From an uncultured SAR86 cluster bacterium (GTDB lineage Bacteria; Pseudomonadota; Gammaproteobacteria; Magnimaribacterales; D2472), in contig CACJCN010000004.1 in NCBI GenBank assembly GCA_902591925.1, positions 15,854 to 79,853 on the forward strand: 64,000 nt of DNA, read 5' to 3'. This document shows, piece after piece, positions 52,135 through 62,877 of the stretch. Within the stretch, counting starts at the first letter, position 1. Every line of letters begins with the position of its first letter. The notes under the pieces are model-generated. The model saw nothing but the letters and a program-made list of their open reading frames with translations, was not told where the DNA came from and made no database searches. Position numbers and translations under genes: made by a program.

Positions 52135-52644
52135 TTGAGCCAAGGGTTAGTAACTTACATAGTTCTTGGCTCTAAAGAGAGGCTGAAGACATTAAAGCTT
52201 CCCGTTTCTAATAGAGAGGAAGAGTATTTATTTGCGAATTTTTCAAATAATGTTTCATGTGAAAAAAAATTAGATCAATTGGTAACTAATTCATGTGGAA
52301 ATTTAATAGTATTCTTACCGCCCTCTGCATTCCCAAACCTAAAAGCTAAAAATGCATTAAAGAAGATAGCAATGCTAGATCTTTCAGCTTGGGGTTGGTT
52401 TCGATTTAAGGAGAAAAAGAATTTTTTACAAAATATAAAAAAAATATCTACAACTCTAAGAAACATACCGAAATTAGAACAAGGAATTTTTTTTAGTAAA
52501 AGGCTATATTTTTCAGTTGGTGGAATTGGAGATTTTGGCTCAGATCCTTTTAAAGAAATCTCAAAAAGATTTTATACAAGAATTGATCCACAAAATCCCT
52601 TACCAGCACTTATAATAAGGACTACAAATCTTGAAATATTCTAA
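52135..52644 (+). CDS. Degenerate GT2-like hypothetical protein
   Basis: WGWFRF and EQGIFF..RLY.SVGG resemble TIGR04283-type transferases, but LPPS replaces LHAD. Confidence 0.45.
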   Translation: MSQGLVTYIVLGSKERLKTLKLPVSNREEEYLFANFSNNVSCEKKLDQLVTNSCGNLIVFLPPSAFPNLKAKNALKKIAMLDLSAWGWFRFKEKKNFLQNIKKISTTLRNIPKLEQGIFFSKRLYFSVGGIGDFGSDPFKEISKRFYTRIDPQNPLPALIIRTTNLEIF

Positions 52645-53222
52645 TGAATAAAAATTCTTTAATAGTTGCACAAAATATTGGTTATAAAATTAATGAAAAT
52701 AAGCTTTTTCACAACATTTCTTTCGATATAAATCAAGGAGAGGCGCTACATATTAAGGGTAGAAATGGATCGGGTAAATCTACATTAATTAGAATAATTT
52801 TAGGAATTACCGAACCAGTAAAAGGAACTTTAGAAAATAAATCAACAAAAGAGATATGCTATTTAGGGCATAAAAATGCTTTAAAAACTTACTTAACTCT
52901 TGACGATAACATTAACTTAATGCAACTAGATAACTCTGAAATGCTAAAATCCTATCTTGATAAACTAGAACTTAATAAATATAGAGATGTCACAGTTTCT
53001 AATTTATCATTTGGACAACAAAAAAAGTTAGCTTTGTTAAGAGTATTTCTAAATAATTCTGATTTAATAATATTGGATGAACCTTTTGTGGGGTTAGATG
53101 ATGATGCGCTCTCAATACTTACTTCATTTTTAAATAATGAATTAAATAAGAATAAGTCATTGGTTTTTACTTCACATATTCCTTGTAACATAAACTCTAA
53201 AATTTTAGAGATGCCAAAATAA
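52644..53222 (+). CDS. ccmA: Heme export ABC ATPase
   Basis: GRNGSGKST, LSFGQQKK, LDEPF; first gene of the ccm run. Confidence 0.9.
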   Translation: MNKNSLIVAQNIGYKINENKLFHNISFDINQGEALHIKGRNGSGKSTLIRIILGITEPVKGTLENKSTKEICYLGHKNALKTYLTLDDNINLMQLDNSEMLKSYLDKLELNKYRDVTVSNLSFGQQKKLALLRVFLNNSDLIILDEPFVGLDDDALSILTSFLNNELNKNKSLVFTSHIPCNINSKILEMPK

Positions 53223-53229
53223 AATAAAT

Positions 53230-53871
53230 ATGTTTGAGCTAGAATTTTTAAAATTAAGAAAGAAAACAAGAAGCTGGCTAGGTCCGATTTTAGTTTTCTG
53301 GTTAATTATGCTTGCATATCCTTTAACTGTTGAATTCCTTCAAGATAAACTAGAAATAGGATTTTTTTCTGTGCTATGGATTGCCATACTAATATCAATG
53401 ATGTTAGCTACAGAGGATATTTTTTCTGAAGATTATAACGATGGATCTCTTGAACAAACCCTAATTAAAAACCCTTCATTTTCTTTTATCATCGTTACTA
53501 AAATATTCACATATTGGCTTTTAATAGGATTGCCTATTTCAATCTTAAGTTTTGTTTTTTCTCTAGGTACTTCAGAGGATTTATCTTTAAGTTTATCAAT
53601 TTTTCCTCTAGCAATAATAAGTTCCTATATTTTCTTAAATTTATTTGTTTTAGGTAATGCACTTAGTTTAAATAAAGGTTCTGTTCTCGGAGCATTAGTC
53701 ACAATGCCTTTAGCACTACCTGTTTTGATCGTATTAGGAAAAGGACTAATTGCAATTCAGTTAGATATAAATTATCAAAGTTTTATTTTTTTATTATTGG
53801 GAAGCTTATCTATTATAATAGTAACTATACCCATAGTAGTATCCTATGTTATTAAGGCTCATTTGGAATAA
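53230..53871 (+). CDS. ccmB: Heme exporter permease B
   Basis: F.EDY.DGSLEQ, L..P..LPVLI. Confidence 0.88.
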   Translation: MFELEFLKLRKKTRSWLGPILVFWLIMLAYPLTVEFLQDKLEIGFFSVLWIAILISMMLATEDIFSEDYNDGSLEQTLIKNPSFSFIIVTKIFTYWLLIGLPISILSFVFSLGTSEDLSLSLSIFPLAIISSYIFLNLFVLGNALSLNKGSVLGALVTMPLALPVLIVLGKGLIAIQLDINYQSFIFLLLGSLSIIIVTIPIVVSYVIKAHLE

Positions 53872-53892
53872 AGTCTTTCAGTACAAAACAAA

Positions 53893-54624
53893 GTGATTAA
53901 AAAATTTATACATCAATTTGCATCTCCAAAAACATACCTATATCAGGTAGGCAGGTTTTATAAATATATTTTTTACTTCTCTTTGGTAATTTACATTATG
54001 TCTATTATTTGGGGTCTTTTTTTTACACCAGAAGATTTTGTTCAAGGAAATTCATATAGAATTATCTATCTGCATGTTCCTGCCTCGTTTTTATCTCAGA
54101 CATTATATTTAGCAATGGCAATATCCAGCGTCACTTATTTAATTTGGAGAGTTAAGCTTGCAGCATACTTAATCATTGCGATTGCGCCTATTGGAGCCAT
54201 GACAACATTTATTGCATTAATATCAGGATCTATATGGGGAATACCCACTTGGGGTACTTGGTGGCAATGGGACGCAAGAATAACATCGACATTAATTTTA
54301 TTTATTATGTATTTAGGTTTAATATCGCTTCATAATTCATTCAGCAATCATGAAAAAGCAGATAAATTGCTGTCATGGTTAGTAATTGTCGGAGCTGCAA
54401 ACATTCCTATCATTAAAAAATCAGTTGATTGGTGGAGCACACTCCATCAGTCTGCATCCATAACATTAACTGATAAGCCCAGTATTGATCCAGTGATGTT
54501 GTATCCTCTGATAGGCTCAATTATAGGATTTTTTGGCTTGATGATTTGTTTAGTTCTACTTTCATCAAAATATCAAATACTCCATAGAGAAAAAAATAAA
54601 TCTTGGGTGAGAGATTATGTTTAA
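53893..54624 (+). CDS. ccmC: Heme exporter protein C
   Basis: YRIIYLHVP, WGIPTWGTWWQWDARITS, VDWWSTLHQ. Confidence 0.95.
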   Translation: MIKKFIHQFASPKTYLYQVGRFYKYIFYFSLVIYIMSIIWGLFFTPEDFVQGNSYRIIYLHVPASFLSQTLYLAMAISSVTYLIWRVKLAAYLIIAIAPIGAMTTFIALISGSIWGIPTWGTWWQWDARITSTLILFIMYLGLISLHNSFSNHEKADKLLSWLVIVGAANIPIIKKSVDWWSTLHQSASITLTDKPSIDPVMLYPLIGSIIGFFGLMICLVLLSSKYQILHREKNKSWVRDYV

Positions 54625-54784
54625 TTTTGCATTTAATTCTTTGTATGAGGCCTTATATATGAATGGTCACGGATTATATGTTTGGAGCGTAGTAATACTA
54701 GTTTTTATTAGTTTATTAGGCTTTTTTATAGGATACACTGTAAAAATTAAAAAAATTAAAGATAAATTAAATGAACCCAATTAG
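54617..54784 (+). CDS. ccmD: Heme exporter protein D
   Basis: Manual translation, 55 aa: MFNFAFNSLYEALYMNGHGLYVWSVV..., TM plus basic tail, between ccmC and ccmE; below the ORF-track cutoff. Confidence 0.85.
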   Translation: MFNFAFNSLYEALYMNGHGLYVWSVVILVFISLLGFFIGYTVKIKKIKDKLNEPN

Positions 54785-55181
54785 AAAGAAACGAATATAC
54801 AGCATTCTTTTTGTATTTTTATTTTCAGTTTCAGGTATTTCACTAATTCTTTACTCATTAAACTCTAATTTAGATTATTTTTTTACGCCAACCGAACTAA
54901 AAGATAGAAATATTCCGGCTGATAAAAGAATTAAGGTTGGAGGTATGGTTTTAAGTGGATCAGTAGAAAGAATTTCATCTTCAATTTCTTTTGTCATCAC
55001 TGATTATGAAAACTCAATTAAAGTTGAATATGAGGGCATAGTCCCAGACTTATTTAAAGAAGATAGCGGTGTTGTCGTTTTAGGAAATTTAAGAGATAAA
55101 ATATTGTATGCAGAAGAAGTTTTAGCTAAGCATGATGAAAACTATATGCCTCCAAATATTGAGTTAAGTAATGATAATTGA
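54771..55181 (+). CDS. ccmE: Cytochrome c maturation heme chaperone
   Basis: FFTPTE, GIVPDLFKE..G.VV.G, LAKHDENYMPP. Confidence 0.95.
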   Translation: MNPIRKKRIYSILFVFLFSVSGISLILYSLNSNLDYFFTPTELKDRNIPADKRIKVGGMVLSGSVERISSSISFVITDYENSIKVEYEGIVPDLFKEDSGVVVLGNLRDKILYAEEVLAKHDENYMPPNIELSNDN

Positions 55182-57066
55182 AATCTCTCATTTTTTATCA
55201 ATTTTAGCTACCGGCTTATTTTTGCTCGTTGGTTATTTCTCTATGCTTACTCCTTCATCAAATTCTAGGTACATATCAAACTTGATTGTTAGAACATATT
55301 CGCATGGATTCTTTTTTCTTCTGTCCTCATTTTTAATATATGTTTGGCTAGCAATTACAGATAATTTTAGTGTTCAATATATTGCAAATCACTCAAATAC
55401 AGCACTTCCGATTTTTTATAAAATTTCTTCGATATGGAGTGCACATGAAGGCTCAATGTTTCTATGGATTGTTTTCTTGTCTTTATGGGGATTTTTATTC
55501 AATATTAGGGTTAAAAATAGTGAAGTTTTAAAGCCTAAAACTATGGGAGTAATTTCTTTAATATTGGTTGGATTTTTAATATTCTTGTTAGCAACATCAA
55601 ATCCTTTTGAAACAATACTTCCAATTCCACCTTTAAATGGAGCTGATATTAATCCAGTCTTGCAAGATCCTGCCTTAGCAATTCATCCCCCAACTCTTTA
55701 TTTGGGATACGTCGGATTTGTAATTCCGTTTGCTTGCTCAATTGCTTTTTTGCTCTATGGCGATTCCAAAATAAACTGGGAAGCTTTAGTAAAAACATGG
55801 TCTGTTTCTGCATGGGTTTTTCTCACAGTTGGTATAACTCTAGGAAGTTGGTGGGCTTATTATGAATTGGGTTGGGGAGGATATTGGTTTTGGGATCCTG
55901 TTGAAAATGTTGCATTAATGCCATGGCTAGCGGCTACTGCATTTATTCATTCGCTTGGAGTATCAATAAAATCATCGCAGCTTAGAATTTGGACAATTTT
56001 ATTATCAATTCTAGTGTTCTCTCTCAGTTTGTTTGGTGCTTTTATTGTTAGATCTGGAATTATTGATAGCGTTCATGCATTTGCAAATGATCCTGATAGA
56101 GGCCTATATCTTCTTGGATTTATTGGAATAATTGTCTTCATATCAGTTTTTTTGTTTATTTTGAGATTATCAAGCATTCAATCCTTGTCGAGAATTAAGA
56201 AATTTTCGAAACAATCATTTATTTCTATAAATAATATTCTTTTTGGAGCTCTTATCTTTTCGGTGATGTTGGGCGTCACTTACCCATTAATTTATGAATT
56301 TTTATTTGATCAAAAAATTAGTGTTGGCGCGCCATTTTATAATGCAATTTTTATCCCAATAGTTGTTTTAGCTGCAATTTTTTTATTTTTCTCAGTTGAT
56401 TCAAAATGGTCAAGAAGCATTAACTTCAAATTTATTTCAGCGCCTATATCATTTTCAATTTTATTATCATTAGCGTTTACTTTATTTATTATGCAATATT
56501 TTGAGTCTCAGAGTATTTCAGTACTTGCTTCGATATTTGCAGGCTCATTGATTATATTTAGATACATATATGAAATTATTAACTCAATTTTTAGTAAGAA
56601 ATTTATAAATCCTTTCAGTGTAATAGCGCATATATCACTTGGATTACTTTTAATATCTATTTCATTCAATAGTCTTTTGAGCACTGAAAGAGCTTTAAGT
56701 ATTGGCTTGAATAGTACTGAGGCATACAAAGACTTAAAAATAAGTTTTAAAGATATTGGTGTGGAAAATAATACTAATTATGATTCAATAAAAGCAACAT
56801 TTCTTGTAGAAGATCAAACCGGTAGAACATTTAATCTTAAGCCAGAAAAAAGAAGATATTTTACTAGAGGTCAAATCACTACAGAAACAGCAATTCATGT
56901 AACACTTTTGAGAGATATCTACATAACAATTGGTGATCAGCTTGATGATGGAAGTTGGATTGTGAATATTCAAATTAACTATTTAATAAGATGGATTTGG
57001 TTATCAGCATTATTGATGGGTTTAGCTGGAGTAGTATTAGTTTTTTCAAATAGGGTCAAAACATGA
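55171..57066 (+). CDS. ccmF: Cytochrome c heme lyase subunit
   Basis: HEGSM, LNPxLQ-like INPVLQD..IHPP, WAYYELGWGGYWFWDPVEN. Confidence 0.95.
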   Translation: MIIEISHFLSILATGLFLLVGYFSMLTPSSNSRYISNLIVRTYSHGFFFLLSSFLIYVWLAITDNFSVQYIANHSNTALPIFYKISSIWSAHEGSMFLWIVFLSLWGFLFNIRVKNSEVLKPKTMGVISLILVGFLIFLLATSNPFETILPIPPLNGADINPVLQDPALAIHPPTLYLGYVGFVIPFACSIAFLLYGDSKINWEALVKTWSVSAWVFLTVGITLGSWWAYYELGWGGYWFWDPVENVALMPWLAATAFIHSLGVSIKSSQLRIWTILLSILVFSLSLFGAFIVRSGIIDSVHAFANDPDRGLYLLGFIGIIVFISVFLFILRLSSIQSLSRIKKFSKQSFISINNILFGALIFSVMLGVTYPLIYEFLFDQKISVGAPFYNAIFIPIVVLAAIFLFFSVDSKWSRSINFKFISAPISFSILLSLAFTLFIMQYFESQSISVLASIFAGSLIIFRYIYEIINSIFSKKFINPFSVIAHISLGLLLISISFNSLLSTERALSIGLNSTEAYKDLKISFKDIGVENNTNYDSIKATFLVEDQTGRTFNLKPEKRRYFTRGQITTETAIHVTLLRDIYITIGDQLDDGSWIVNIQINYLIRWIWLSALLMGLAGVVLVFSNRVKT

Positions 57067-57584
57067 ATTTATTATTAAGATTAATAGTTTTCACAGTCCC
57101 AACAACTTTCATATTATTATTTTTTATGATTTTAACAAATGAAGATACATATCCTGGAGCTGACTATGATCAATTTCAGGTCCCTGAATTTGAATTAAAA
57201 GTTCTTGATAATTCAATTTCAGTCAAAAGTGACTTTTTAAATGGTGATTACGTCTTAAATGTATGGGCGAGCTGGTGTGTAACTTGCATCATAGAACATC
57301 CATACCTAACAAGCTTAAGCAAAAATGGCATACCTATTATTGGATTAAATTACAAAGATGAACAAGAAGATGCCATCATTTGGTTAAAAAAATATGGCAA
57401 TCCGTATCAAACAATATTGCATGATTATCAGGGAAATTTGGCACTTGATTTAGGTGTGACAGGAGCACCAGAAACATTTTTGATTAACGATGGTAAAGTT
57501 ATCGCTCATTATCAAGGTGAGGTAAACGATCAAATATGGAATGATGTTTTTTTGCCAGTTATAAAAGATAGGAAAATGTTTTAG
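57063..57584 (+). CDS. ccmG: Thiol:disulfide interchange protein DsbE/CcmG
   Basis: NVWASWCVTC..EHP, LGVTGAPETF. Confidence 0.92.
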   Translation: MNLLLRLIVFTVPTTFILLFFMILTNEDTYPGADYDQFQVPEFELKVLDNSISVKSDFLNGDYVLNVWASWCVTCIIEHPYLTSLSKNGIPIIGLNYKDEQEDAIIWLKKYGNPYQTILHDYQGNLALDLGVTGAPETFLINDGKVIAHYQGEVNDQIWNDVFLPVIKDRKMF

Positions 57585-57953
57585 ATGAGATATTTATATA
57601 TATTTTTATTGTTCTCATCATTAAACATCTCATCAGATAACTTATATTATTTTGAAGATGAGCAAGATGAAAATAGATTTAACAATTTAATAAAAGATAT
57701 CAGATGCCCTAAGTGTACTTCTGGTTCTTTATCAAGTTCAAATGCTCCAATATCTGAAGATTTAAAAATTAAGATTGCAGAAATGATCAATGAAAACAAA
57801 ACTGATCAAGAAATCAAAGACTATGTTTCGTCAAGATTTGGACAAGATTCTTTATATAAACCTGAGTTAAATAACTCAACCTATATTTTATGGTATTCTC
57901 CTTTTGCTTTTTTACTTTTAGCTTTTTTAATTTTTTTCTTTAGAAAAAAATAA
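57585..57953 (+). CDS. ccmH: Cytochrome c biogenesis protein CcmH
   Basis: IRCPKC..SL..SNAPIS.DL, RFG...LYKP. Confidence 0.9.
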   Translation: MRYLYIFLLFSSLNISSDNLYYFEDEQDENRFNNLIKDIRCPKCTSGSLSSSNAPISEDLKIKIAEMINENKTDQEIKDYVSSRFGQDSLYKPELNNSTYILWYSPFAFLLLAFLIFFFRKK

Positions 57954-58738
57954 TGTTTATTTTTTATCTATTAACAACATTAGCAGCTTTGCCAATAATT
58001 GCTTATGTTTTGGCTCAGAAAACGATAAATAAGGGGTTAATTCTTGGATCATCATTGTTAATCCTTTCCTTATGCCTGTTTATGTTTATAAGTAAATTTG
58101 CATTTATTGGTTCATTTGAAAAACAAACACTAAATAATAAAATTTTTGATGAAATTTATATTGATTCAGCAATACCTGTTGAATATTTTATACAACTAGA
58201 AAATATTCTTGATGAAGATGAATTGAAGAATTGGCTAGTAGGCCTAATTGGCAAATCAATAGATTTGAAAAAACTCAAGTCAGCCGAGAGTTTGGTAGCT
58301 TTTTCAGAGAGATTTTTTATATCAAATAATGAAAAGCTTATCTTTTATAACTTATATTCTGCTTTAAGAGATGAGAAATTTCCTAAATTTAAGAACTCTA
58401 GTTTTAAGATAGACCCTAGCTCATTGTATCCATGCTCTATAAAAAATGGAGAAGTTACTCTTTTCATAGCAAATGGTCCTGAAATACCAATTGCAAGAAA
58501 AGAATTCAAAAACAAAGATAATATTTTATTAAATAATCTAGATAGTGTGATACCTGGATTTGATTTAGCATCTGCATATTTAAACCAAGAATCTATTGAG
58601 GTAAAAATTAAAATTAATTGTTTGGATGATCGGCAAACATTTTTTATGCAAAATACAATAGTTATTAATCAAAATACATCTTCTAATTCATACATAATTA
58701 ATTTAAATGAATGGTTTAAAACCCCACAAGAGTTATAA
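57953..58738 (+). CDS. Divergent CcmI/CycH-like membrane protein
   Basis: Position after ccmH; two N-terminal TMs; C-terminal VTLFIA..GP.IPIA resembles the CycH C-terminal domain. Confidence 0.5.
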   Translation: MFIFYLLTTLAALPIIAYVLAQKTINKGLILGSSLLILSLCLFMFISKFAFIGSFEKQTLNNKIFDEIYIDSAIPVEYFIQLENILDEDELKNWLVGLIGKSIDLKKLKSAESLVAFSERFFISNNEKLIFYNLYSALRDEKFPKFKNSSFKIDPSSLYPCSIKNGEVTLFIANGPEIPIARKEFKNKDNILLNNLDSVIPGFDLASAYLNQESIEVKIKINCLDDRQTFFMQNTIVINQNTSSNSYIINLNEWFKTPQEL

Positions 58739-58763: not shown

Positions 58764-60962
58764 ATGCAGCTTAAACATATAAAACTCTCAGGTTTTAAAA
58801 GTTTCGTTGATCCAACGAAGATATCTTTTCCAACAAATATGGTCGGCGTTGTAGGTCCTAACGGTTGTGGAAAATCAAATGTAATTGATGCTGTTAGATG
58901 GGTGCTTGGTGAATTATCAGCAAAAAATCTTAGAGGTGAATCAATGGTGGACGTCATCTTCAACGGCTCAGAGAACAGAAAAGCTTCTGGGCAATGCAGT
59001 ATCGAGCTTTTATTTGATAATTCGAGTGCCAAAATAGGAGGAGAGTACGCTTCATTTAATGAGGTATCAATTAAAAGAGTTATGACAAGAGACGCTCAGT
59101 CTGATTATTTTATAAATAATACAAAATGTAGAAGGAAAGATGTACAAGATATATTCCTTGGAACTGGCCTTGGACCAAGCTCTTATGCAATTATTGAACA
59201 AGGGATGGTCAGTAAGCTTGTTAGTGCTAAACCGGATGAGCTAAGAACGCATATTGAAGAGGCTGCAGGAGTTTCAAAGTATAGAGAAAGAAGAAGAGAA
59301 ACAGAATCTAGAATTAAAAGAACTAGAGAGAATTTATCTCGAGTAAAAGATATTAGAGATGAAATTGGAAGATTAATAAAAAGACTTGAGAATCAGGCAA
59401 AAGCTGCTGAAAAATATAATGTACTTAAAAAAGATAAAGCAAAACTTGAACTGGATAAGGCCATTCTGTTTTCTATTGAAGCCAAAAGTAGCAGAGATGA
59501 TCTTCAAAAAAAATTAGATTCATTAAACAGAGACTTACAGATAAAAAATGCTGAATCTGAAACTATACAATCTCAAATAGATCAATTTAGAACCGAAAAT
59601 GAATCAGTTCTTAGCGAATATGAAGACGCTCAAAAGAATTTTTATGCTGTTGGTGCAGAAATAGCTAAAAGGGAAGCAAACCTTCAAAACATCAATAAAA
59701 ATGAACAAGAAACAAAGTCTAATTTAGAAAAAGTAAAACAAAACTACGAAAAAGCCAAGGAGACTGAAAAGAATTTTGAAGAGTTAAGTCCTAGTGAAAA
59801 GGCAATGCATATCCTTGATAGCATGATAAATACAATCGAGAAATATGGAATAAATAATGAAAATATCAGAGAAAAAGCTATTGAATTAAAAAGCTTGCTT
59901 ACAGATATACTTAATATAGCAACTGCCCAATCCAAGACATTAACTGAGGAGTATTTATCAAGACAAAATGATTTAGAAGACCAAATTGTAAATGCTGAAA
60001 AACTGAAAAAGTCTATCGAAGATGAAATGAAAGACTTTGTAGATAAAAGTTCTAGTGCTGAATCAGTTTTGATTTCCCTAAGGCAAAAACAATCTAAATT
60101 TAATGAAGAGTTGAGAGAGTTTGAAAATAAAAAATCTATTACAGATTTAGATGCTAGAACAATTTCTGAAAAGATCACAAATATAAGAATTGAGCAAAAA
60201 ACATATGAAATTAATTTAGATAATTCAAACAAAAAAATTAAAGAAGCTGGAATAGACATAGATAAAATAGATTTTTCTGAATATGAAGATATGACTACGG
60301 ATGAGCTTGAAGATAAGCTGGTCAATATTGAGACAAAAATAATAAAATTAGGAGCCATTAATTTAGCTGCGCCAGAGGAAATAGAAGAGGAATCAAAAAG
60401 AAAAGAAGAGCTAGATGAACAATATAATGACTTAACAGAAGCTTTAGAAAAACTTACTGGAGCAATAAAAAAGATAGATCAAGAAACCAAAACAATTTTT
60501 AAGGAAAGCTTTGATTCTGTTAATTCAAAACTAAATGAGATGTTTCCAAAACTCTTTGGTGGTGGGGTAGCTGAATTAACCTTGACTGAGGAGGATGCCT
60601 TAAATGCTGGTGTGATTTTAATGGCAAGACCTCCTGGAAAGAAAAATTCATCAATATCTCAATTATCAGGTGGTGAAAAAGCCTTGACTGCATTGGCCTT
60701 AGTTTTTGCAATTTTTGACTTAAATCCAGCACCTTTTTGTTTGCTAGATGAAGTAGATGCTCCTCTAGATGACTTGAATACATTAAGATTCATAAATATG
60801 GTCGAGGAGATGTCAAAAACTGTTCAGTTTATATTTATAACTCATAATAAAGTTTCAATGGAAAGAAGTGACTACCTTATGGGTGTAACAATGCAAGAGG
60901 CTGGAGTTTCGAGAATGGTATCGGTGGATGTTAATCAAGCTCTCGAATTGGCTGAATCCTAA
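58764..60962 (+). CDS. smc: Short SMC-family chromosome segregation ATPase (732 aa, no recognisable hinge)
   Basis: GPNGCGKSN, EEAAG, LGAINLAAPEE, LSGGEKALTAL, LDEVDAPLD; smc-zipA synteny. Confidence 0.9.
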   Translation: MQLKHIKLSGFKSFVDPTKISFPTNMVGVVGPNGCGKSNVIDAVRWVLGELSAKNLRGESMVDVIFNGSENRKASGQCSIELLFDNSSAKIGGEYASFNEVSIKRVMTRDAQSDYFINNTKCRRKDVQDIFLGTGLGPSSYAIIEQGMVSKLVSAKPDELRTHIEEAAGVSKYRERRRETESRIKRTRENLSRVKDIRDEIGRLIKRLENQAKAAEKYNVLKKDKAKLELDKAILFSIEAKSSRDDLQKKLDSLNRDLQIKNAESETIQSQIDQFRTENESVLSEYEDAQKNFYAVGAEIAKREANLQNINKNEQETKSNLEKVKQNYEKAKETEKNFEELSPSEKAMHILDSMINTIEKYGINNENIREKAIELKSLLTDILNIATAQSKTLTEEYLSRQNDLEDQIVNAEKLKKSIEDEMKDFVDKSSSAESVLISLRQKQSKFNEELREFENKKSITDLDARTISEKITNIRIEQKTYEINLDNSNKKIKEAGIDIDKIDFSEYEDMTTDELEDKLVNIETKIIKLGAINLAAPEEIEEESKRKEELDEQYNDLTEALEKLTGAIKKIDQETKTIFKESFDSVNSKLNEMFPKLFGGGVAELTLTEEDALNAGVILMARPPGKKNSSISQLSGGEKALTALALVFAIFDLNPAPFCLLDEVDAPLDDLNTLRFINMVEEMSKTVQFIFITHNKVSMERSDYLMGVTMQEAGVSRMVSVDVNQALELAES

Positions 60963-61586
60963 ATGAGTGTAAATTCTGAGATATATCTAATAGGACTCGC
61001 TATTTTGATATTTCTTATAATTACTTTTTTATTCATAAGAAAAGTCTCAAATAACGGTAAGTTAAAAGTTAAAATTGAGAAAGTTCAAGATTCATCAGAT
61101 TTAAATATTTCAGATGAGCCACATAAAAATCAACAATCTTTTGATTTTGATATAAATCAGTCAAAAGAGCAGGAATTAGTAATACTAAATCTAATTTCTA
61201 TGGATAGATCTATGTTTGATATGGATCAATTATTTGGTTTTTTATCAAATTATGGAGCAAAAACTTTGAATAATTATTTTGCTTTTTATCAAGATAATAA
61301 AACAGAAAAATTTCGGGTTATAAACGCTTTAAAACCAGGAACTTTTGAAGATGAAACTAAATCATTTGCTATCGCAGTCGTATCTGATTTAAATGTTGTA
61401 GATGACCCTTTAAATACAGTGAAACAAATGATCGAATTTTCAATTAATTTTGCAGAAAAATTTTATGCAACACTTTGTGATCAAGACAGAACTCCAATGA
61501 CAAAACAAATGATTTCACATATTGAGTCTAGAGCTCAAGATATAGCAAGATTAAAACAATTAAATATTTCTGATACGGAAAAATAA
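60963..61586 (+). CDS. zipA: Compact ZipA (TM plus FtsZ-binding domain)
   Basis: N-terminal TM, then LVILNL..NALKPGTF..M......F...L.D..R..MT.Q; follows smc. Confidence 0.7.
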   Translation: MSVNSEIYLIGLAILIFLIITFLFIRKVSNNGKLKVKIEKVQDSSDLNISDEPHKNQQSFDFDINQSKEQELVILNLISMDRSMFDMDQLFGFLSNYGAKTLNNYFAFYQDNKTEKFRVINALKPGTFEDETKSFAIAVVSDLNVVDDPLNTVKQMIEFSINFAEKFYATLCDQDRTPMTKQMISHIESRAQDIARLKQLNISDTEK

Positions 61587-61590
61587 ATAA

Positions 61591-62877
61591 ATGATAGAAC
61601 CTTGGAAGATTATTGAAGAACTTGAAAGTGATAACAGTCGATTATTTAAAGAAGGAGTAATAGAAAAGCATCTTAACGATAAAACTTTCCAAGAGGGACT
61701 TGTTATGTGTTTAGATCCTTTGACTACATTTGGAGTAAAACAAGTACCTGAATGTATTGAAGATGGGGCCGGTCTTGATTGGAGTGATTTTAAAAAAGCT
61801 GCAAACCAATTAATAGATAGAGAAAAAACTGGCCATGCTGCAAGAGATTTGATTATTGAATTAATTGAATCATCAAAGACAGATCAGTGGAATGATTGGT
61901 ATAGAAGAATCCTTATAAAGGACCTCAGGTGTGGAGTAAGTGAAAAGACGGTAAACAATGTTGCAAAAAAAATGGATTTAGAATTTAGAGTTCCTATTTT
62001 TTCTTGTATGTTAGCTCATGATGGCGCTAAACATCCAAAAAAAATTAAGGGTGATTGTTTAGTAGAGTATAAATATGATGGTGTAAGAGTTGTTGCCATT
62101 GTTAAAAATGGAAGAGCAACTTTATACAGCCGAAATGGAAAAATATTTAATAATTTTCCCCACATAGAAAGTGCTCTTAGTAAAAAAGAATTTAATAATC
62201 TTGTTTTTGATGGAGAAGTGATGAGCGATGATTTTCAGGCTTTAATGAAACAAGTTTATAGAAAATCAGGAGCAAAAACTGACGATGCTTATCTCGCTTT
62301 GTTTGACATTCTTCCTCTAAAAGAATTTAACAATGGAAAAAGTAGACTAAATTCAATTAATAGAAAAGAACAACTTAATAAATTGGCTCAATCTTTTGAT
62401 GATTCAATTAAGCTAGTAGATTATGAAATTATCAACTTTGATAATGATGATGGGCAAGCTAAATTTTCTAACATGAATAAAGAAGCACTTGAAAAAGGTT
62501 TTGAGGGTTTAATGATTAAACCTTGCAACAATTTTTATGAATGTAAAAGAAGTCATGCTTGGTTGAAAATAAAACCATTTATTGAAGTTACTTTGAAGGT
62601 AATCAAAATTCAAGAAGGAACTGGAAAGCATGAGGGCAAGTTAGGTGCTTTTCATGTTGAAGGTAATGATGATGGGAAGTTTTTTTCATTAAGTGTTGGA
62701 AGTGGGCTTACTGATGATGATAGAGAAAAATTTTGGGCTGCAAAAGATAAGCTTATTGGTAGAATGATCGAAATACGAGCAGATGCTATAACTCAAAGTA
62801 TTGAGGGCGAGCACTATAGCTTAAGATTTCCAAGATTTAAAAACTTTAGAGGATTTAAAGAGGATGAAAAGATTTAA
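61591..62877 (+). CDS. ATP-dependent DNA ligase
   Basis: KYDG (K161), SRNGK, FDGE, EGLMIK, KRSHAWLKIK, OB-fold VGSG and SLRFPRF; no LigA motifs or BRCT domain. Confidence 0.93.
   Translation: MIEPWKIIEELESDNSRLFKEGVIEKHLNDKTFQEGLVMCLDPLTTFGVKQVPECIEDGAGLDWSDFKKAANQLIDREKTGHAARDLIIELIESSKTDQWNDWYRRILIKDLRCGVSEKTVNNVAKKMDLEFRVPIFSCMLAHDGAKHPKKIKGDCLVEYKYDGVRVVAIVKNGRATLYSRNGKIFNNFPHIESALSKKEFNNLVFDGEVMSDDFQALMKQVYRKSGAKTDDAYLALFDILPLKEFNNGKSRLNSINRKEQLNKLAQSFDDSIKLVDYEIINFDNDDGQAKFSNMNKEALEKGFEGLMIKPCNNFYECKRSHAWLKIKPFIEVTLKVIKIQEGTGKHEGKLGAFHVEGNDDGKFFSLSVGSGLTDDDREKFWAAKDKLIGRMIEIRADAITQSIEGEHYSLRFPRFKNFRGFKEDEKI

What the first reader, a model, noticed from the sequence alone, without database searches (positions are those of the whole stretch)
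58764..60962. Naturally hinge-less, half-length SMC at the canonical smc locus
Seen: an uninterrupted 732-aa ORF with intact SMC head motifs. The N-arm spans about residues 170-340, a ~55-aa helical apex starting LSPSEK covers about 341-395, and the C-arm runs to about 595. There are no hinge Gly motifs and no CxxC zinc hook. Established: bacterial Smc is ~1150-1190 aa and dimerises through a globular hinge needed for ring formation and loop extrusion; arm length is constrained. Inference: about 440 aa centred on the hinge were removed nearly symmetrically, which argues for an evolved mini-condensin that dimerises through a new apex (RecN-like) or acts without a closed ring.
Basis: partly seen in the sequence, partly recalled or inferred. 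Interest (0 to 1): 0.85.

Follow-up and report, generated by a model that had tools for sequence, protein, structure and literature searches.

The report
Hinge-less half-length SMC in SAR86
One of the ocean's most abundant bacterial groups (SAR86) organises its chromosome with a conserved SMC "condensin" protein that has lost the hinge domain and half of each arm, which makes it a natural test of which parts of this universal DNA-folding motor are needed.

Summary
Window 58764-60962 (+) encodes a 732-aa protein that scores as the bacterial Smc equivalog and has every ATPase motif intact. It has no hinge by Pfam, no beta-strands anywhere between the heads in a confident AlphaFold2 model, and no CxxC hook. 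It is not an assembly artefact. More than 120 variants from single-cell genomes, MAGs, Tara scaffolds and a polished 502-kb contig are all exactly 732 aa. Selection on the gene is strongly purifying, with dN/dS 0.03-0.05 overall and 0.01-0.03 in the apex.

The organism is SAR86 (Gammaproteobacteria). Every SAR86 length class (727, 732, 736, 810, 827, 995/996 aa) lacks the hinge and sits in the same ccm-smc-zipA-ligase locus. Hinge-bearing Porticoccus (1166 aa) shares that locus.

New points:
- The 995/996-aa forms are short forms whose arms were re-lengthened by two internal duplications.
- A second gammaproteobacterial lineage has a 905/906-aa hinge-less Smc next to scpA-scpB.
- SAR86-labelled genomes keep scpA-scpB elsewhere in the genome.

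Prior art exists: a 2025 paper reported abundant oceanic hinge-less SMCs but assigned them to Actinobacteria. How the two protomers are joined at the apex remains untested.

The parts
58764..60962 (+). smc gene encoding the hinge-less 732-aa Smc ortholog
   Evidence: ORF; TIGR02168 813 bits, above the 567 cut-off; SMC_N only, no hinge; dN/dS 0.03-0.05
58764..59273 (+). N-terminal half of the ATPase head (aa 1-170), with Walker A at aa 31-38 and Q-loop Q146
   Evidence: PDB Smc heads 5xg3 and 3zgx match at E~1e-105
59274..59783 (+). N-arm, one continuous helix (aa 171-340, about 25 nm); includes the conserved neck and the joint-like segment at aa 286-300
   Evidence: AF2 H171-340; invariant neck residues; conservation profile
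59784..59858 (+). Apex (aa 341-365): LSPS break, a 16-aa amphipathic cap helix (EKAMHILDSMINTIEK) and a loop; replaces the hinge and the distal arms
   Evidence: AF2; clade-specific motif LSP[SK]EKA[ML]H[IL]; no similarity to the ancestral hinge; dN/dS 0.014-0.027 for aa 341-400
59859..60557 (+). C-arm strand (aa 366-598): H366-494, loop 495-511, H512-529, junction LGAINLAAPEE at 529-539, H536-598
   Evidence: AF2; junction motif is single-copy in 92 of 96 SMCs
60558..60962 (+). C-terminal half of the ATPase head (aa 599-732): signature LSGGE 634-638, Walker B/D-loop 658-669, H-loop H694; followed by the stop codon
60963..61586 (+). zipA (207 aa); its start codon directly abuts the smc stop codon
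   Evidence: PF04354 ZipA_C; conserved position in all SAR86 loci
61591..62877 (+). ATP-dependent DNA ligase occupying the slot where NAD+-dependent LigA sits in other SAR86 genomes and other gammaproteobacteria
   Evidence: Pfam; synteny comparison; PDB 6RAR/6RAS/6RAU at E~1e-132
52644..58738 (+). Upstream ccmA-B-C-(D)-E-F-G-H genes plus a 261-aa membrane ORF (57953-58738, no Pfam hit). They serve as a synteny anchor for orthology and are not part of the SMC system.

Best explanation
This is the orthologous Smc (condensin ATPase) of a SAR86 bacterium. An ancestor of the SAR86-type clade lost the globular hinge and the distal half of both arm strands. What remains is the complete ABC ATPase head, the kleisin-binding neck, the joint region and an arm of about 170 aa (about 25 nm). 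The arm is closed by a short, lineage-specific helical cap.

Shown: orthology, absence of the hinge, an all-helical short hairpin architecture, intact catalytic motifs, fixed length across deep divergence, and strong purifying selection that includes the apex.

Inferred: the protein still works as the ATPase of an Smc-ScpAB-type complex. ATP engages two heads and one ScpA bridges them, binding the neck of one protomer and the cap of the other. The distal ends are then either held together by a new apex-apex helical contact or kept aligned only by arm-arm zipping. The hinge fold itself is dispensable. This fits the B. subtilis result that an unrelated dimeriser (a Rad50 zinc hook) can replace the hinge.
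For: Identity: TIGR02168 equivalog score is above its cut-off, and all motifs are intact.

Orthology: the locus ccmFGH-smc-zipA-ligase-SLT_4 is shared by all SAR86 length classes and by hinge-bearing Porticoccus. In the head-domain tree the hinge-less SAR86 forms group together next to the full-length gammaproteobacterial Smc proteins.

No hinge: Pfam is negative with a working positive control. The AF2 model has no strands between the heads. No separate hinge ORF exists in the window or the SAR86 loci.

Functional: more than 120 variants are all 732 aa. dN/dS is 0.026-0.049 for the whole gene, 0.044-0.080 for arms plus apex, and 0.014-0.027 for the apex. Neck residues are invariant across 96 Smc proteins, including full-length ones.

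Partners: a 271-aa ScpA radiation with adjacent ScpB has Porticoccaceae as its nearest outgroup. It contains clusters of 448-873 members and includes NCBI records named 'SAR86 cluster bacterium' (MDA9608802.1, MDA9636598.1). One record sits in the context nadE-scpA-scpB-rluB in GCA_028135785.1. A separate 905/906-aa hinge-less Smc lineage has scpA-scpB immediately downstream.

Against: - Dimerisation at the apex is untested, and the AF2 confidence there is low (pLDDT 45-63).
- Across SAR86 the apex is no better conserved than the arms (pairwise identity 0.34-0.56). It also differs in length and sequence between the 727/732, 736 and 810/827 classes.
- ScpAB was not shown in the very genome that the window comes from. 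None lies in the 64-kb window or within 10 kb of smc.
- parB/parS, MksBEF or a second SMC could not be surveyed genome-wide.
- In B. subtilis most engineered arm lengths were non-functional (PMC5344682), so function at about 170 aa is not guaranteed by analogy.
Confidence: 0.7

Rival explanations
1. Open-armed complex. The protein works with ScpAB but the apices do not dimerise. Only the ATP-engaged heads and the kleisin hold two protomers together, so the complex forms a small head-kleisin compartment rather than a full tripartite ring, and the arms act as levers or spacers.
For: The apex is short (about 25 aa), is predicted with low confidence, and varies among SAR86 classes. ScpA can in principle bridge two heads without a hinge (established Smc-ScpAB architecture; own knowledge).
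Against: Between close relatives the apex is under purifying selection as strong as that on the heads (dN/dS 0.014-0.027). It also carries a conserved amphipathic motif within the 727/732/995 clade. A sublineage re-grew its arms by duplication and kept a terminal apex copy, which suggests that the distal end matters.
Confidence: 0.3
2. Neofunctionalised SMC-like ATPase. After losing the hinge the protein no longer acts as condensin but as a RecN- or Rad50-like DNA-repair or tethering factor, or in another head-only role. Chromosome organisation in these tiny slow-growing cells would then manage without loop extrusion.
For: The hinge is considered important for dimerisation and DNA loading in canonical SMCs. 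smc phenotypes are mild in many bacteria under slow growth (abstract of PMC3919155). The architecture resembles RecN in having a short coiled coil and no hinge (own knowledge).
Against: The equivalog-level Smc score contrasts with RecN at 37 bits and Rad50 at no more than 54 bits. The smc locus is retained. The invariant neck is retained. ScpA/ScpB persist in SAR86-labelled genomes and are linked to the other hinge-less lineage. Foldseek's best matches are Smc head, coiled coil and joint structures.
Confidence: 0.12
3. Artefact or decaying gene: a misassembled, chimeric or pseudogenised smc.
For: Nothing beyond the unusual length.
Against: The 732-aa length is identical in more than 120 variants and in single-cell genomes, MAGs, Tara scaffolds, a polished 502-kb contig and a 1.37-Mb contig. 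There are no stops or frameshifts. dN/dS is well below 1 in every region. Length classes stay fixed across 62-100% identity.
Confidence: 0.01

Closest known systems
Canonical bacterial Smc of the Smc-ScpAB complex (NCBIfam TIGR02168; e.g. B. subtilis Smc, and the gammaproteobacterial orthologs of 1156-1169 aa)
   Same: Same ATPase head, neck, joint-like segment, arm-head junction motif and genomic locus. It is an ortholog by synteny and phylogeny. ScpA/ScpB are present in SAR86-labelled genomes.
   Different: There is no hinge domain (PF06470), and the arms are about 170 aa rather than about 330-340 aa. The total length is 732 aa against about 1165 aa.
'Hinge-less' oceanic SMC clade from OM-RGC/Tara (Environ Microbiome 2025, PMC12153180)
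   Same: [quoted passage not shown] Very abundant in ocean metagenomes, and no co-occurring canonical SMC was reported.
   Different: That clade was annotated as class Actinomycetes and placed near actinobacterial seed sequences. SAR86 and Gammaproteobacteria are never mentioned, and no sequences are held for a direct comparison. The protein here is firmly gammaproteobacterial. The paper does not report arm re-lengthening, length classes or ScpAB linkage.
Engineered Mini-Smc and Smc(zinc-hook) chimeras of B. subtilis (Burmann et al. 2017, PMC5344682)
   Same: Shortened arms, and a hinge replaced by an unrelated or minimal distal element. These constructs show that the hinge fold is not essential and that arm length is under constraint.
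   Different: Those are laboratory constructs that always keep a defined dimerisation domain. Here the change is natural and ancient, and no recognisable dimeriser is present. The paper's natural arm-length survey required a recognisable hinge, so it could not have found these proteins.
RecN (TIGR00634)
   Same: An SMC-like head with a short coiled coil and no globular hinge. RecN dimerises through its coiled-coil tips (own knowledge), which makes it a possible analogy for how the apex works.
   Different: Not a member: 37.5 bits against a cut-off of 408. The locus and phylogeny also differ.
Rad50/SbcC
   Same: An SMC-like head with a hinge-less coiled coil.
   Different: There is no CxxC zinc hook, the HMM scores are far below the cut-offs, and no Mre11/SbcD partner lies at the locus.

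Membership tests
Bacterial Smc (TIGR02168, Smc-ScpAB condensin) | Split ABC ATPase head with Walker A, Q-loop, signature motif, Walker B, D-loop and H-loop | tested here: met
Bacterial Smc (TIGR02168, Smc-ScpAB condensin) | Whole-protein score above the curated equivalog cut-off | tested here: met
   813.5 bits against 567.35
Bacterial Smc (TIGR02168, Smc-ScpAB condensin) | Orthology: conserved locus and phylogenetic position | tested here: met
   ccm-smc-zipA-lig synteny is shared with hinge-bearing Porticoccus; head-domain NJ tree (no bootstrap)
Bacterial Smc (TIGR02168, Smc-ScpAB condensin) | Two long helical strands forming an intramolecular arm of canonical length (about 340 aa per strand) | tested here: not met
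   The strands are present but about half length: H171-340 and H366-529/598. The canonical length is taken from PMC5344682 and from the orthologs.
Bacterial Smc (TIGR02168, Smc-ScpAB condensin) | Globular hinge dimerisation domain (PF06470) | tested here: not met
   No Pfam hit, with a working positive control. The AF2 middle region is all-helical. hhalign finds no hinge remnant. No separate hinge ORF exists.
Bacterial Smc (TIGR02168, Smc-ScpAB condensin) | Kleisin ScpA and kite ScpB encoded in the same genome | tested here: inconclusive
   Absent from the window and from within 10 kb of smc. Present as nadE-scpA-scpB-rluB in an NCBI assembly labelled SAR86 and in a very abundant low-GC radiation sister to Porticoccaceae. 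Co-occurrence in the same genome was not demonstrated.
RecN (TIGR00634) | Score above the equivalog cut-off | tested here: not met
   37.5 bits against 407.85
Rad50/SbcC | CxxC zinc hook at the coiled-coil apex; family HMM above its cut-off | tested here: not met
   Cysteines only at 35, 78, 122 and 659. The best Rad50 model scores 53.6 bits against a cut-off of 700.
MukB/MksB | Match to MukB or MksB family models | tested here: not met
   No such family appears among the Pfam hits or the 25 best of 27 NCBIfam hits
Hinge-less oceanic SMC (PMC12153180) | SMC head plus coiled coil, no hinge, no CxxC, abundant in ocean metagenomes | tested here: met
   description
Hinge-less oceanic SMC (PMC12153180) | Membership of that paper's monophyletic cluster (annotated Actinomycetes) | not testable with these tools
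   No sequences are held in the paper or its supplements. The present protein is gammaproteobacterial.

The most novel reading that the evidence does not exclude
Nature has repeatedly discarded the SMC hinge in streamlined marine bacterioplankton: in SAR86, in a second gammaproteobacterial lineage with smc-scpA-scpB, and in the published actinobacterial clade. In each case heads, neck, joint and ScpAB were kept. This would imply that the conserved motor core does not need a hinge to organise a small chromosome. In one SAR86 sublineage the arms were then rebuilt by duplicating whole arm modules (architecture ABBCCD), a natural experiment suggesting that selection acts on arm length or geometry rather than on the hinge.
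Probability: 0.4. Interest if true: 0.8.

Novelty: new member of a known kind. Interest (0 to 1): 0.66.

Why it matters
Current loop-extrusion and DNA-loading models give the hinge specific jobs: constitutive dimerisation, DNA binding, acting as an entry gate, and hinge-head communication along an arm of tuned length (own knowledge; PMC5344682).

SAR86 makes up about 2-6% of the surface-ocean microbial community (PMC11582366). If it runs on a hinge-less Smc with arms of about 25 nm together with ScpAB, then a minimal natural SMC motor exists that can be expressed, imaged and tested in single-molecule assays.

The length series offers ready-made natural variants for asking what arm length and the distal element contribute. 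It comprises the 727/732, 736, 810/827, 905/906 and re-lengthened 995/996 forms.

The finding also corrects annotation. These genes are often labelled 'AAA family ATPase' or 'hypothetical protein'.

Tried and rejected
- Misassembly or pseudogene: rejected.
- Hinge encoded as a separate ORF: tblastn with five ancestral hinge and distal-arm queries against the window and 17 SAR86 loci gave nothing below E=0.1.
- Apex as a hinge relic: hhalign of the apex profile against the ancestral region 300-860 gave only a 7-column, E=0.72 match at the conserved N-arm proline. MAFFT's placement of the cap helix under the first hinge helix is therefore not supported.
- The 995-aa form as an intermediate in the reduction: rejected. 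It carries two copies of the apex motif and of the head-proximal junction, and it is nested within the short forms.
- scpA/scpB in the window: none found.
- Tetranucleotide and GC signature for assigning candidate scpA loci to SAR86: not discriminating. r is 0.93-0.99 for many low-GC marine lineages.
- Contig-length fingerprinting: a ScpA scaffold and an SMC scaffold were both 21,203 bp, but they turned out to be different scaffolds.
- Matching assembly accessions to the SAR86 genome tables of PMC11582366: GCA_902588565.1 (736-aa Smc) is listed. GCA_002705445, GCA_045564135, GCA_028411615, GCA_902595845 and GCA_028135785 are not.
- Marker-gene and KO supplements of that paper: they contain no ScpA, ScpB or SMC entries in the text held.
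- The hypothesis that the 905/906-aa lineage is the SAR86 family Magnimaribacteraceae (GC 36.6% and a 1.57-Mb contig both match): not supported, because its single-cell genome GCA_902595845.1 is absent from the SAR86 tables.
- Matching the arm length to the 163-aa minor mode of Burmann et al.: not claimed, because domain boundaries are defined differently there.
Full report
**1. What is in the sequence**

Window 58764-60962 (+) is an uninterrupted ATG-initiated ORF of 732 aa, in a window whose 2-kb GC values run from 28% to 38%. All catalytic elements of an SMC head are present:
- Walker A GPNGCGKS 31-38
- Q-loop Q146
- signature LSGGE 634-638
- Walker B plus D-loop FCLLDEVDAPLD 658-669
- H-loop H694

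Pfam reports SMC_N spanning residues 3-716 and generic AAA families, but no SMC_hinge. NCBIfam scores the protein as the SMC_prok_B equivalog at 813.5 bits, above the 567 cut-off. The match comes in two stretches, the first covering query 2-377 against profile 1-372 of 1181. RecN scores 37.5 bits against a cut-off of 408, and Rad50 models score at most 54 bits against cut-offs of at least 700. The closest solved structures are bacterial Smc heads with their coiled-coil stumps (5xg3, 3zgx; E~1e-105). Cysteines occur only at 35, 78, 122 and 659, so there is no zinc hook.

**2. No hinge, by several tests**

- Pfam control: full-length orthologs from Porticoccus (L016, 1166 aa) and Alcanivorax (L041, 1165 aa) show SMC_hinge at about 524-619.
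- Alignment: against 14 full-length gammaproteobacterial orthologs of 1156-1169 aa, the window protein lacks roughly reference residues 335-828, a net 434 aa. About 60 residues stand in their place.
- Structure: an AlphaFold2 model built on 76 sequences has mean pLDDT 82.6. It gives one continuous N-arm helix 171-340, a low-confidence break at 341-344 (LSPS), a 16-residue cap helix 345-360, a loop 361-365, then C-strand helices 366-494, 512-529 and 536-598. No beta-strand occurs between residues 171 and 598.
- Fold search: Foldseek's best PDB matches are Smc head, coiled coil and joint structures (5xei, 5xns, 5h68).
- Hinge relic: a profile of the apex compared by hhalign with the whole ancestral region gave only a 7-column, E=0.72 match. 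It falls on the N-arm proline that is conserved in 88% of full-length sequences. The cap is therefore not a recognisable hinge remnant.
- Split gene: no hinge is encoded separately in the window or in 17 SAR86 loci.

**3. Real, fixed and under selection**

The best 120 database hits are all at least 98% identical and exactly 732 aa. They come from ENA, JGI and NCBI, on contigs of up to 1.37 Mb. The same locus recurs in Tara scaffolds, other metagenome assemblies and a polished 502-kb contig.

For unsaturated comparisons (dS about 0.3), dN/dS is:
- 0.026-0.049 for the whole gene
- 0.044-0.080 for arms plus apex
- 0.014-0.027 for residues 341-400

This excludes both misassembly and decay.

**4. 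Who carries it, and how widely**

A scan of GTDB species representatives identifies the organism as SAR86-cluster Gammaproteobacteria. Their Smc proteins fall into fixed length classes:
- 732 aa: L001-L004, L007, L009, L013
- 727 aa: L005, L006, L008
- 810 aa: L010
- 995/996 aa: L011, L012

The exhaustive search of 50%-identity clusters adds 736 aa (P0207, whose cluster has 458 members) and 827 aa (P0144). In that search 139 of the 150 best clusters are 1132-1220 aa. None of the short classes has a Pfam hinge.

The 736-aa gene lies in single-cell genome GCA_902588565.1. That assembly is listed among the SAR86 genomes in PMC11582366.

All classes share the locus ccmF-G-H-(261-aa ORF)-smc-zipA-ligase-SLT_4. 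Hinge-bearing Porticoccus also has ccm...smc-zipA-ligA, so these genes are orthologs and not paralogs.

In a neighbour-joining tree of head columns, all SAR86-type hinge-less forms group together outside every full-length sequence (no bootstrap). This pattern fits hinge loss at or near the base of the SAR86-type clade. The 810/827-aa forms keep more arm beyond the conserved proline, which suggests stepwise rather than single-step shortening.

**5. The 995/996-aa forms are re-lengthened**

Window-by-window mapping shows L011 = A-B-B'-C'-C-D relative to the 732-aa architecture A-B-C-D. Module B is aa 272-390 (distal N-arm plus apex). Module C is aa 398-539 (C-arm plus the head-proximal junction). 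Both are duplicated in tandem.

The LSPKEK apex motif and the LG.INLA.PEE junction each occur twice. The junction is single-copy in 92 of 96 SMCs and double only in these forms.

The copies pair across L011 and L012 at 44-61% identity. Within one genome they are only 31-36% identical, so the duplications are old.

AF2 (pLDDT 74.7) predicts an all-helical hairpin:
- N-strand 170-449, with a break at 338-343 (the relic first apex)
- true apex at 450-485
- C-strand 486-792, with a break at 615-656 (the relic junction)

The two relic breaks lie at similar distances from the head. Each strand has therefore been extended by about 120-140 aa.

One thing is unexplained. The head tree and the ligase swap (section 9) both place L011 closer to the window's 732-aa clade than L012 is, which makes the long forms paraphyletic. 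The possibilities are secondary loss of both duplications, recombination, or tree error.

**6. A second hinge-less lineage linked to scpAB**

A 905/906-aa Smc without a hinge forms another large radiation of fixed length (63-100% identity; clusters of 101-151 members; one member on a 1.57-Mb contig).

Its locus is smc-zipA-(ligA)-scpA-scpB. In lower-GC relatives, scpA begins about 600 nt downstream of smc and scpB follows it (L092, L130, L117, L096, L125, L175).

In the head tree this lineage nests among full-length sequences. Its single-cell genome GCA_902595845.1 is absent from the SAR86 genome tables. It is therefore probably an independent hinge loss.

A further 1003-aa lineage (P0208) keeps the hinge but has shortened arms.

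**7. Does SAR86 keep the kleisin?**

No scpA or scpB lies in the 64-kb window or within 10 kb of smc.

A metagenome scan for the invariant ScpA motif FEGPLDLLLY in AT-rich codons recovered 96 loci. Among them is a diverse low-GC clade of gamma-type scpA-scpB pairs.

A homology search from the most abundant of these (P0364) shows a radiation of 271-aa ScpA clusters at 60-90% identity, with 448-873 members each. The nearest named outgroup is Porticoccaceae at 52-55%, which mirrors the Smc relationships.

One cluster contains NCBI records named 'segregation/condensation protein A [SAR86 cluster bacterium]' (MDA9608802.1, MDA9636598.1). In GCA_028135785.1 the context is aroG-nadE-scpA-scpB-rluB-HAD-ubiE, the same as in the abundant loci.

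SAR86 genomes therefore encode ScpA and ScpB away from smc. Co-occurrence with the 732-aa gene in one genome is inferred, because every SAR86 Smc seen is hinge-less. It was not demonstrated.

**8. Mechanism**

Shown:
- a complete, selected ATPase head
- a neck whose residues are invariant across 96 Smc proteins
- a conserved joint-like segment at 286-300
- arms of about 170 aa
- a short helical cap carrying a clade-specific amphipathic motif

Inferred: an Smc-ScpAB-type complex in which ATP and ScpA hold two heads together. Its distal ends are either joined by a new apex-apex helical contact (RecN-like in principle; own knowledge) or not joined at all.

Precedent: replacing the B. subtilis hinge with a Rad50 zinc hook supports normal growth, and arm length rather than the dimeriser dominates function (PMC5344682). 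That study's survey of natural arm lengths required a recognisable hinge, so it would have missed these proteins.

I put the 'functional hinge-less Smc working with ScpAB' explanation at 0.7. Within it, apex dimerisation is roughly even odds.

**9. Comparison with what is known, and novelty**

By descent this is Smc. By architecture it fails two defining features, the hinge and the canonical arm length.

A 2025 paper (PMC12153180) already described an abundant oceanic 'hinge-less SMC' clade found by structure prediction. It assigned the clade to Actinobacteria and did not mention SAR86. The gammaproteobacterial placement here is nevertheless solid.

No paper in the searched library links SAR86 with SMC, hinge or ScpAB, and the SAR86 isolate paper does not mention SMC.

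I therefore classify the finding as a new member of a recently recognised kind. The added findings are order-wide distribution with discrete length classes, arm re-lengthening by module duplication, a second gammaproteobacterial hinge loss linked to scpAB, and retention of ScpAB.

Side observation: in the window's subclade (L002, L003, L004, L013 and L011) the NAD+-dependent LigA slot is occupied by an ATP-dependent ligase. Other SAR86 lineages keep LigA there. The ligase is a close homolog of PDB 6RAR/6RAS/6RAU (E~1e-132).

**10. Verdict**

Interest is 0.66.

Noticed in passing
window 61591-62877 (+): An ATP-dependent DNA ligase (428 aa; DNA_ligase_A_M plus DNA_ligase_OB_2) sits exactly where NAD+-dependent LigA sits in other SAR86 lineages and other gammaproteobacteria (smc-zipA-ligA). 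The swap is confined to the subclade WIN/L002/L003/L004/L013 plus L011. The ligase is a close homolog of PDB 6RAR/6RAS/6RAU (E~1e-132) and is about 30-35% identical to phage ligases. Whether LigA persists elsewhere in the genome is unknown.
   Followed up: partly
L011 6001-8985, L012 6001-8988 (SAR86 species representatives): Smc forms of 995/996 aa derive from the short architecture by two tandem duplications of arm modules (ABBCCD), which re-lengthen both strands by about 120-140 aa. The head tree and the ligase swap make them paraphyletic to the window's 732-aa clade, and this is unexplained.
   Followed up: yes
L082/L083, L222, L092, L130, L175: A separate, abundant gammaproteobacterial lineage (GC 30-37%, one member on a 1.57-Mb contig) has a fixed 905/906-aa hinge-less Smc followed by zipA-(ligA)-scpA-scpB, or with scpA-scpB beginning about 600 nt downstream of smc. 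Its taxonomic identity is unresolved, and it is not in the SAR86 genome tables of PMC11582366.
   Followed up: partly
L082 13197-14480 versus L083 9628-11032: In one contig ScpA and ScpB are called as a single 427-aa product carrying both PF02616 and PF04079. In the near-identical sister contig they are two overlapping genes of 272 and 197 aa. This is either a real fusion or a frameshift or assembly difference.
   Followed up: no
P0208 (1003 aa; representative search): A marine Smc that keeps a Pfam hinge (residues 444-540) but has arms shortened by about 80 aa per strand. It is the converse of the SAR86 case and another natural arm-length variant.
   Followed up: partly
window 60960-60965: The smc stop codon is directly followed by the zipA ATG with no spacer. 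In L081 and L222 the two genes overlap or abut in the same way, suggesting co-transcription and translational coupling of smc with the division gene zipA. ZipA here is short (207 aa).
   Followed up: no
window 57953-58738 (+): A 261-aa ORF with N-terminal membrane helices and no Pfam hit lies between ccmH and smc. It is conserved at 22-87% identity in the 727/732/995 SAR86 loci but absent in the 736- and 810-aa lineages. It is possibly a CcmI-like protein.
   Followed up: no
P0036: A 99%-identical copy of this SAR86 Smc is deposited as 'hypothetical protein [Prochlorococcus sp.]' on a 227-kb MAG contig, which is probably a mis-binned or mislabelled MAG. Other copies are labelled only 'AAA family ATPase'.
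   Followed up: no
A1 alignment column 363 (L016 P354); window aa 343: A proline in the N-arm (L.P.L) is conserved in 88% of full-length gammaproteobacterial Smc proteins. In the multiple alignment it lines up with the apex-initiating proline of the 736-, 810-, 827- and 995-aa forms. For the window's own LSPSEK the correspondence rests on homology with the first LSPK of the 995-aa form and on a 7-column, E=0.72 hhalign match. The short N-arm thus appears to end at a pre-existing coiled-coil discontinuity.
   Followed up: partly
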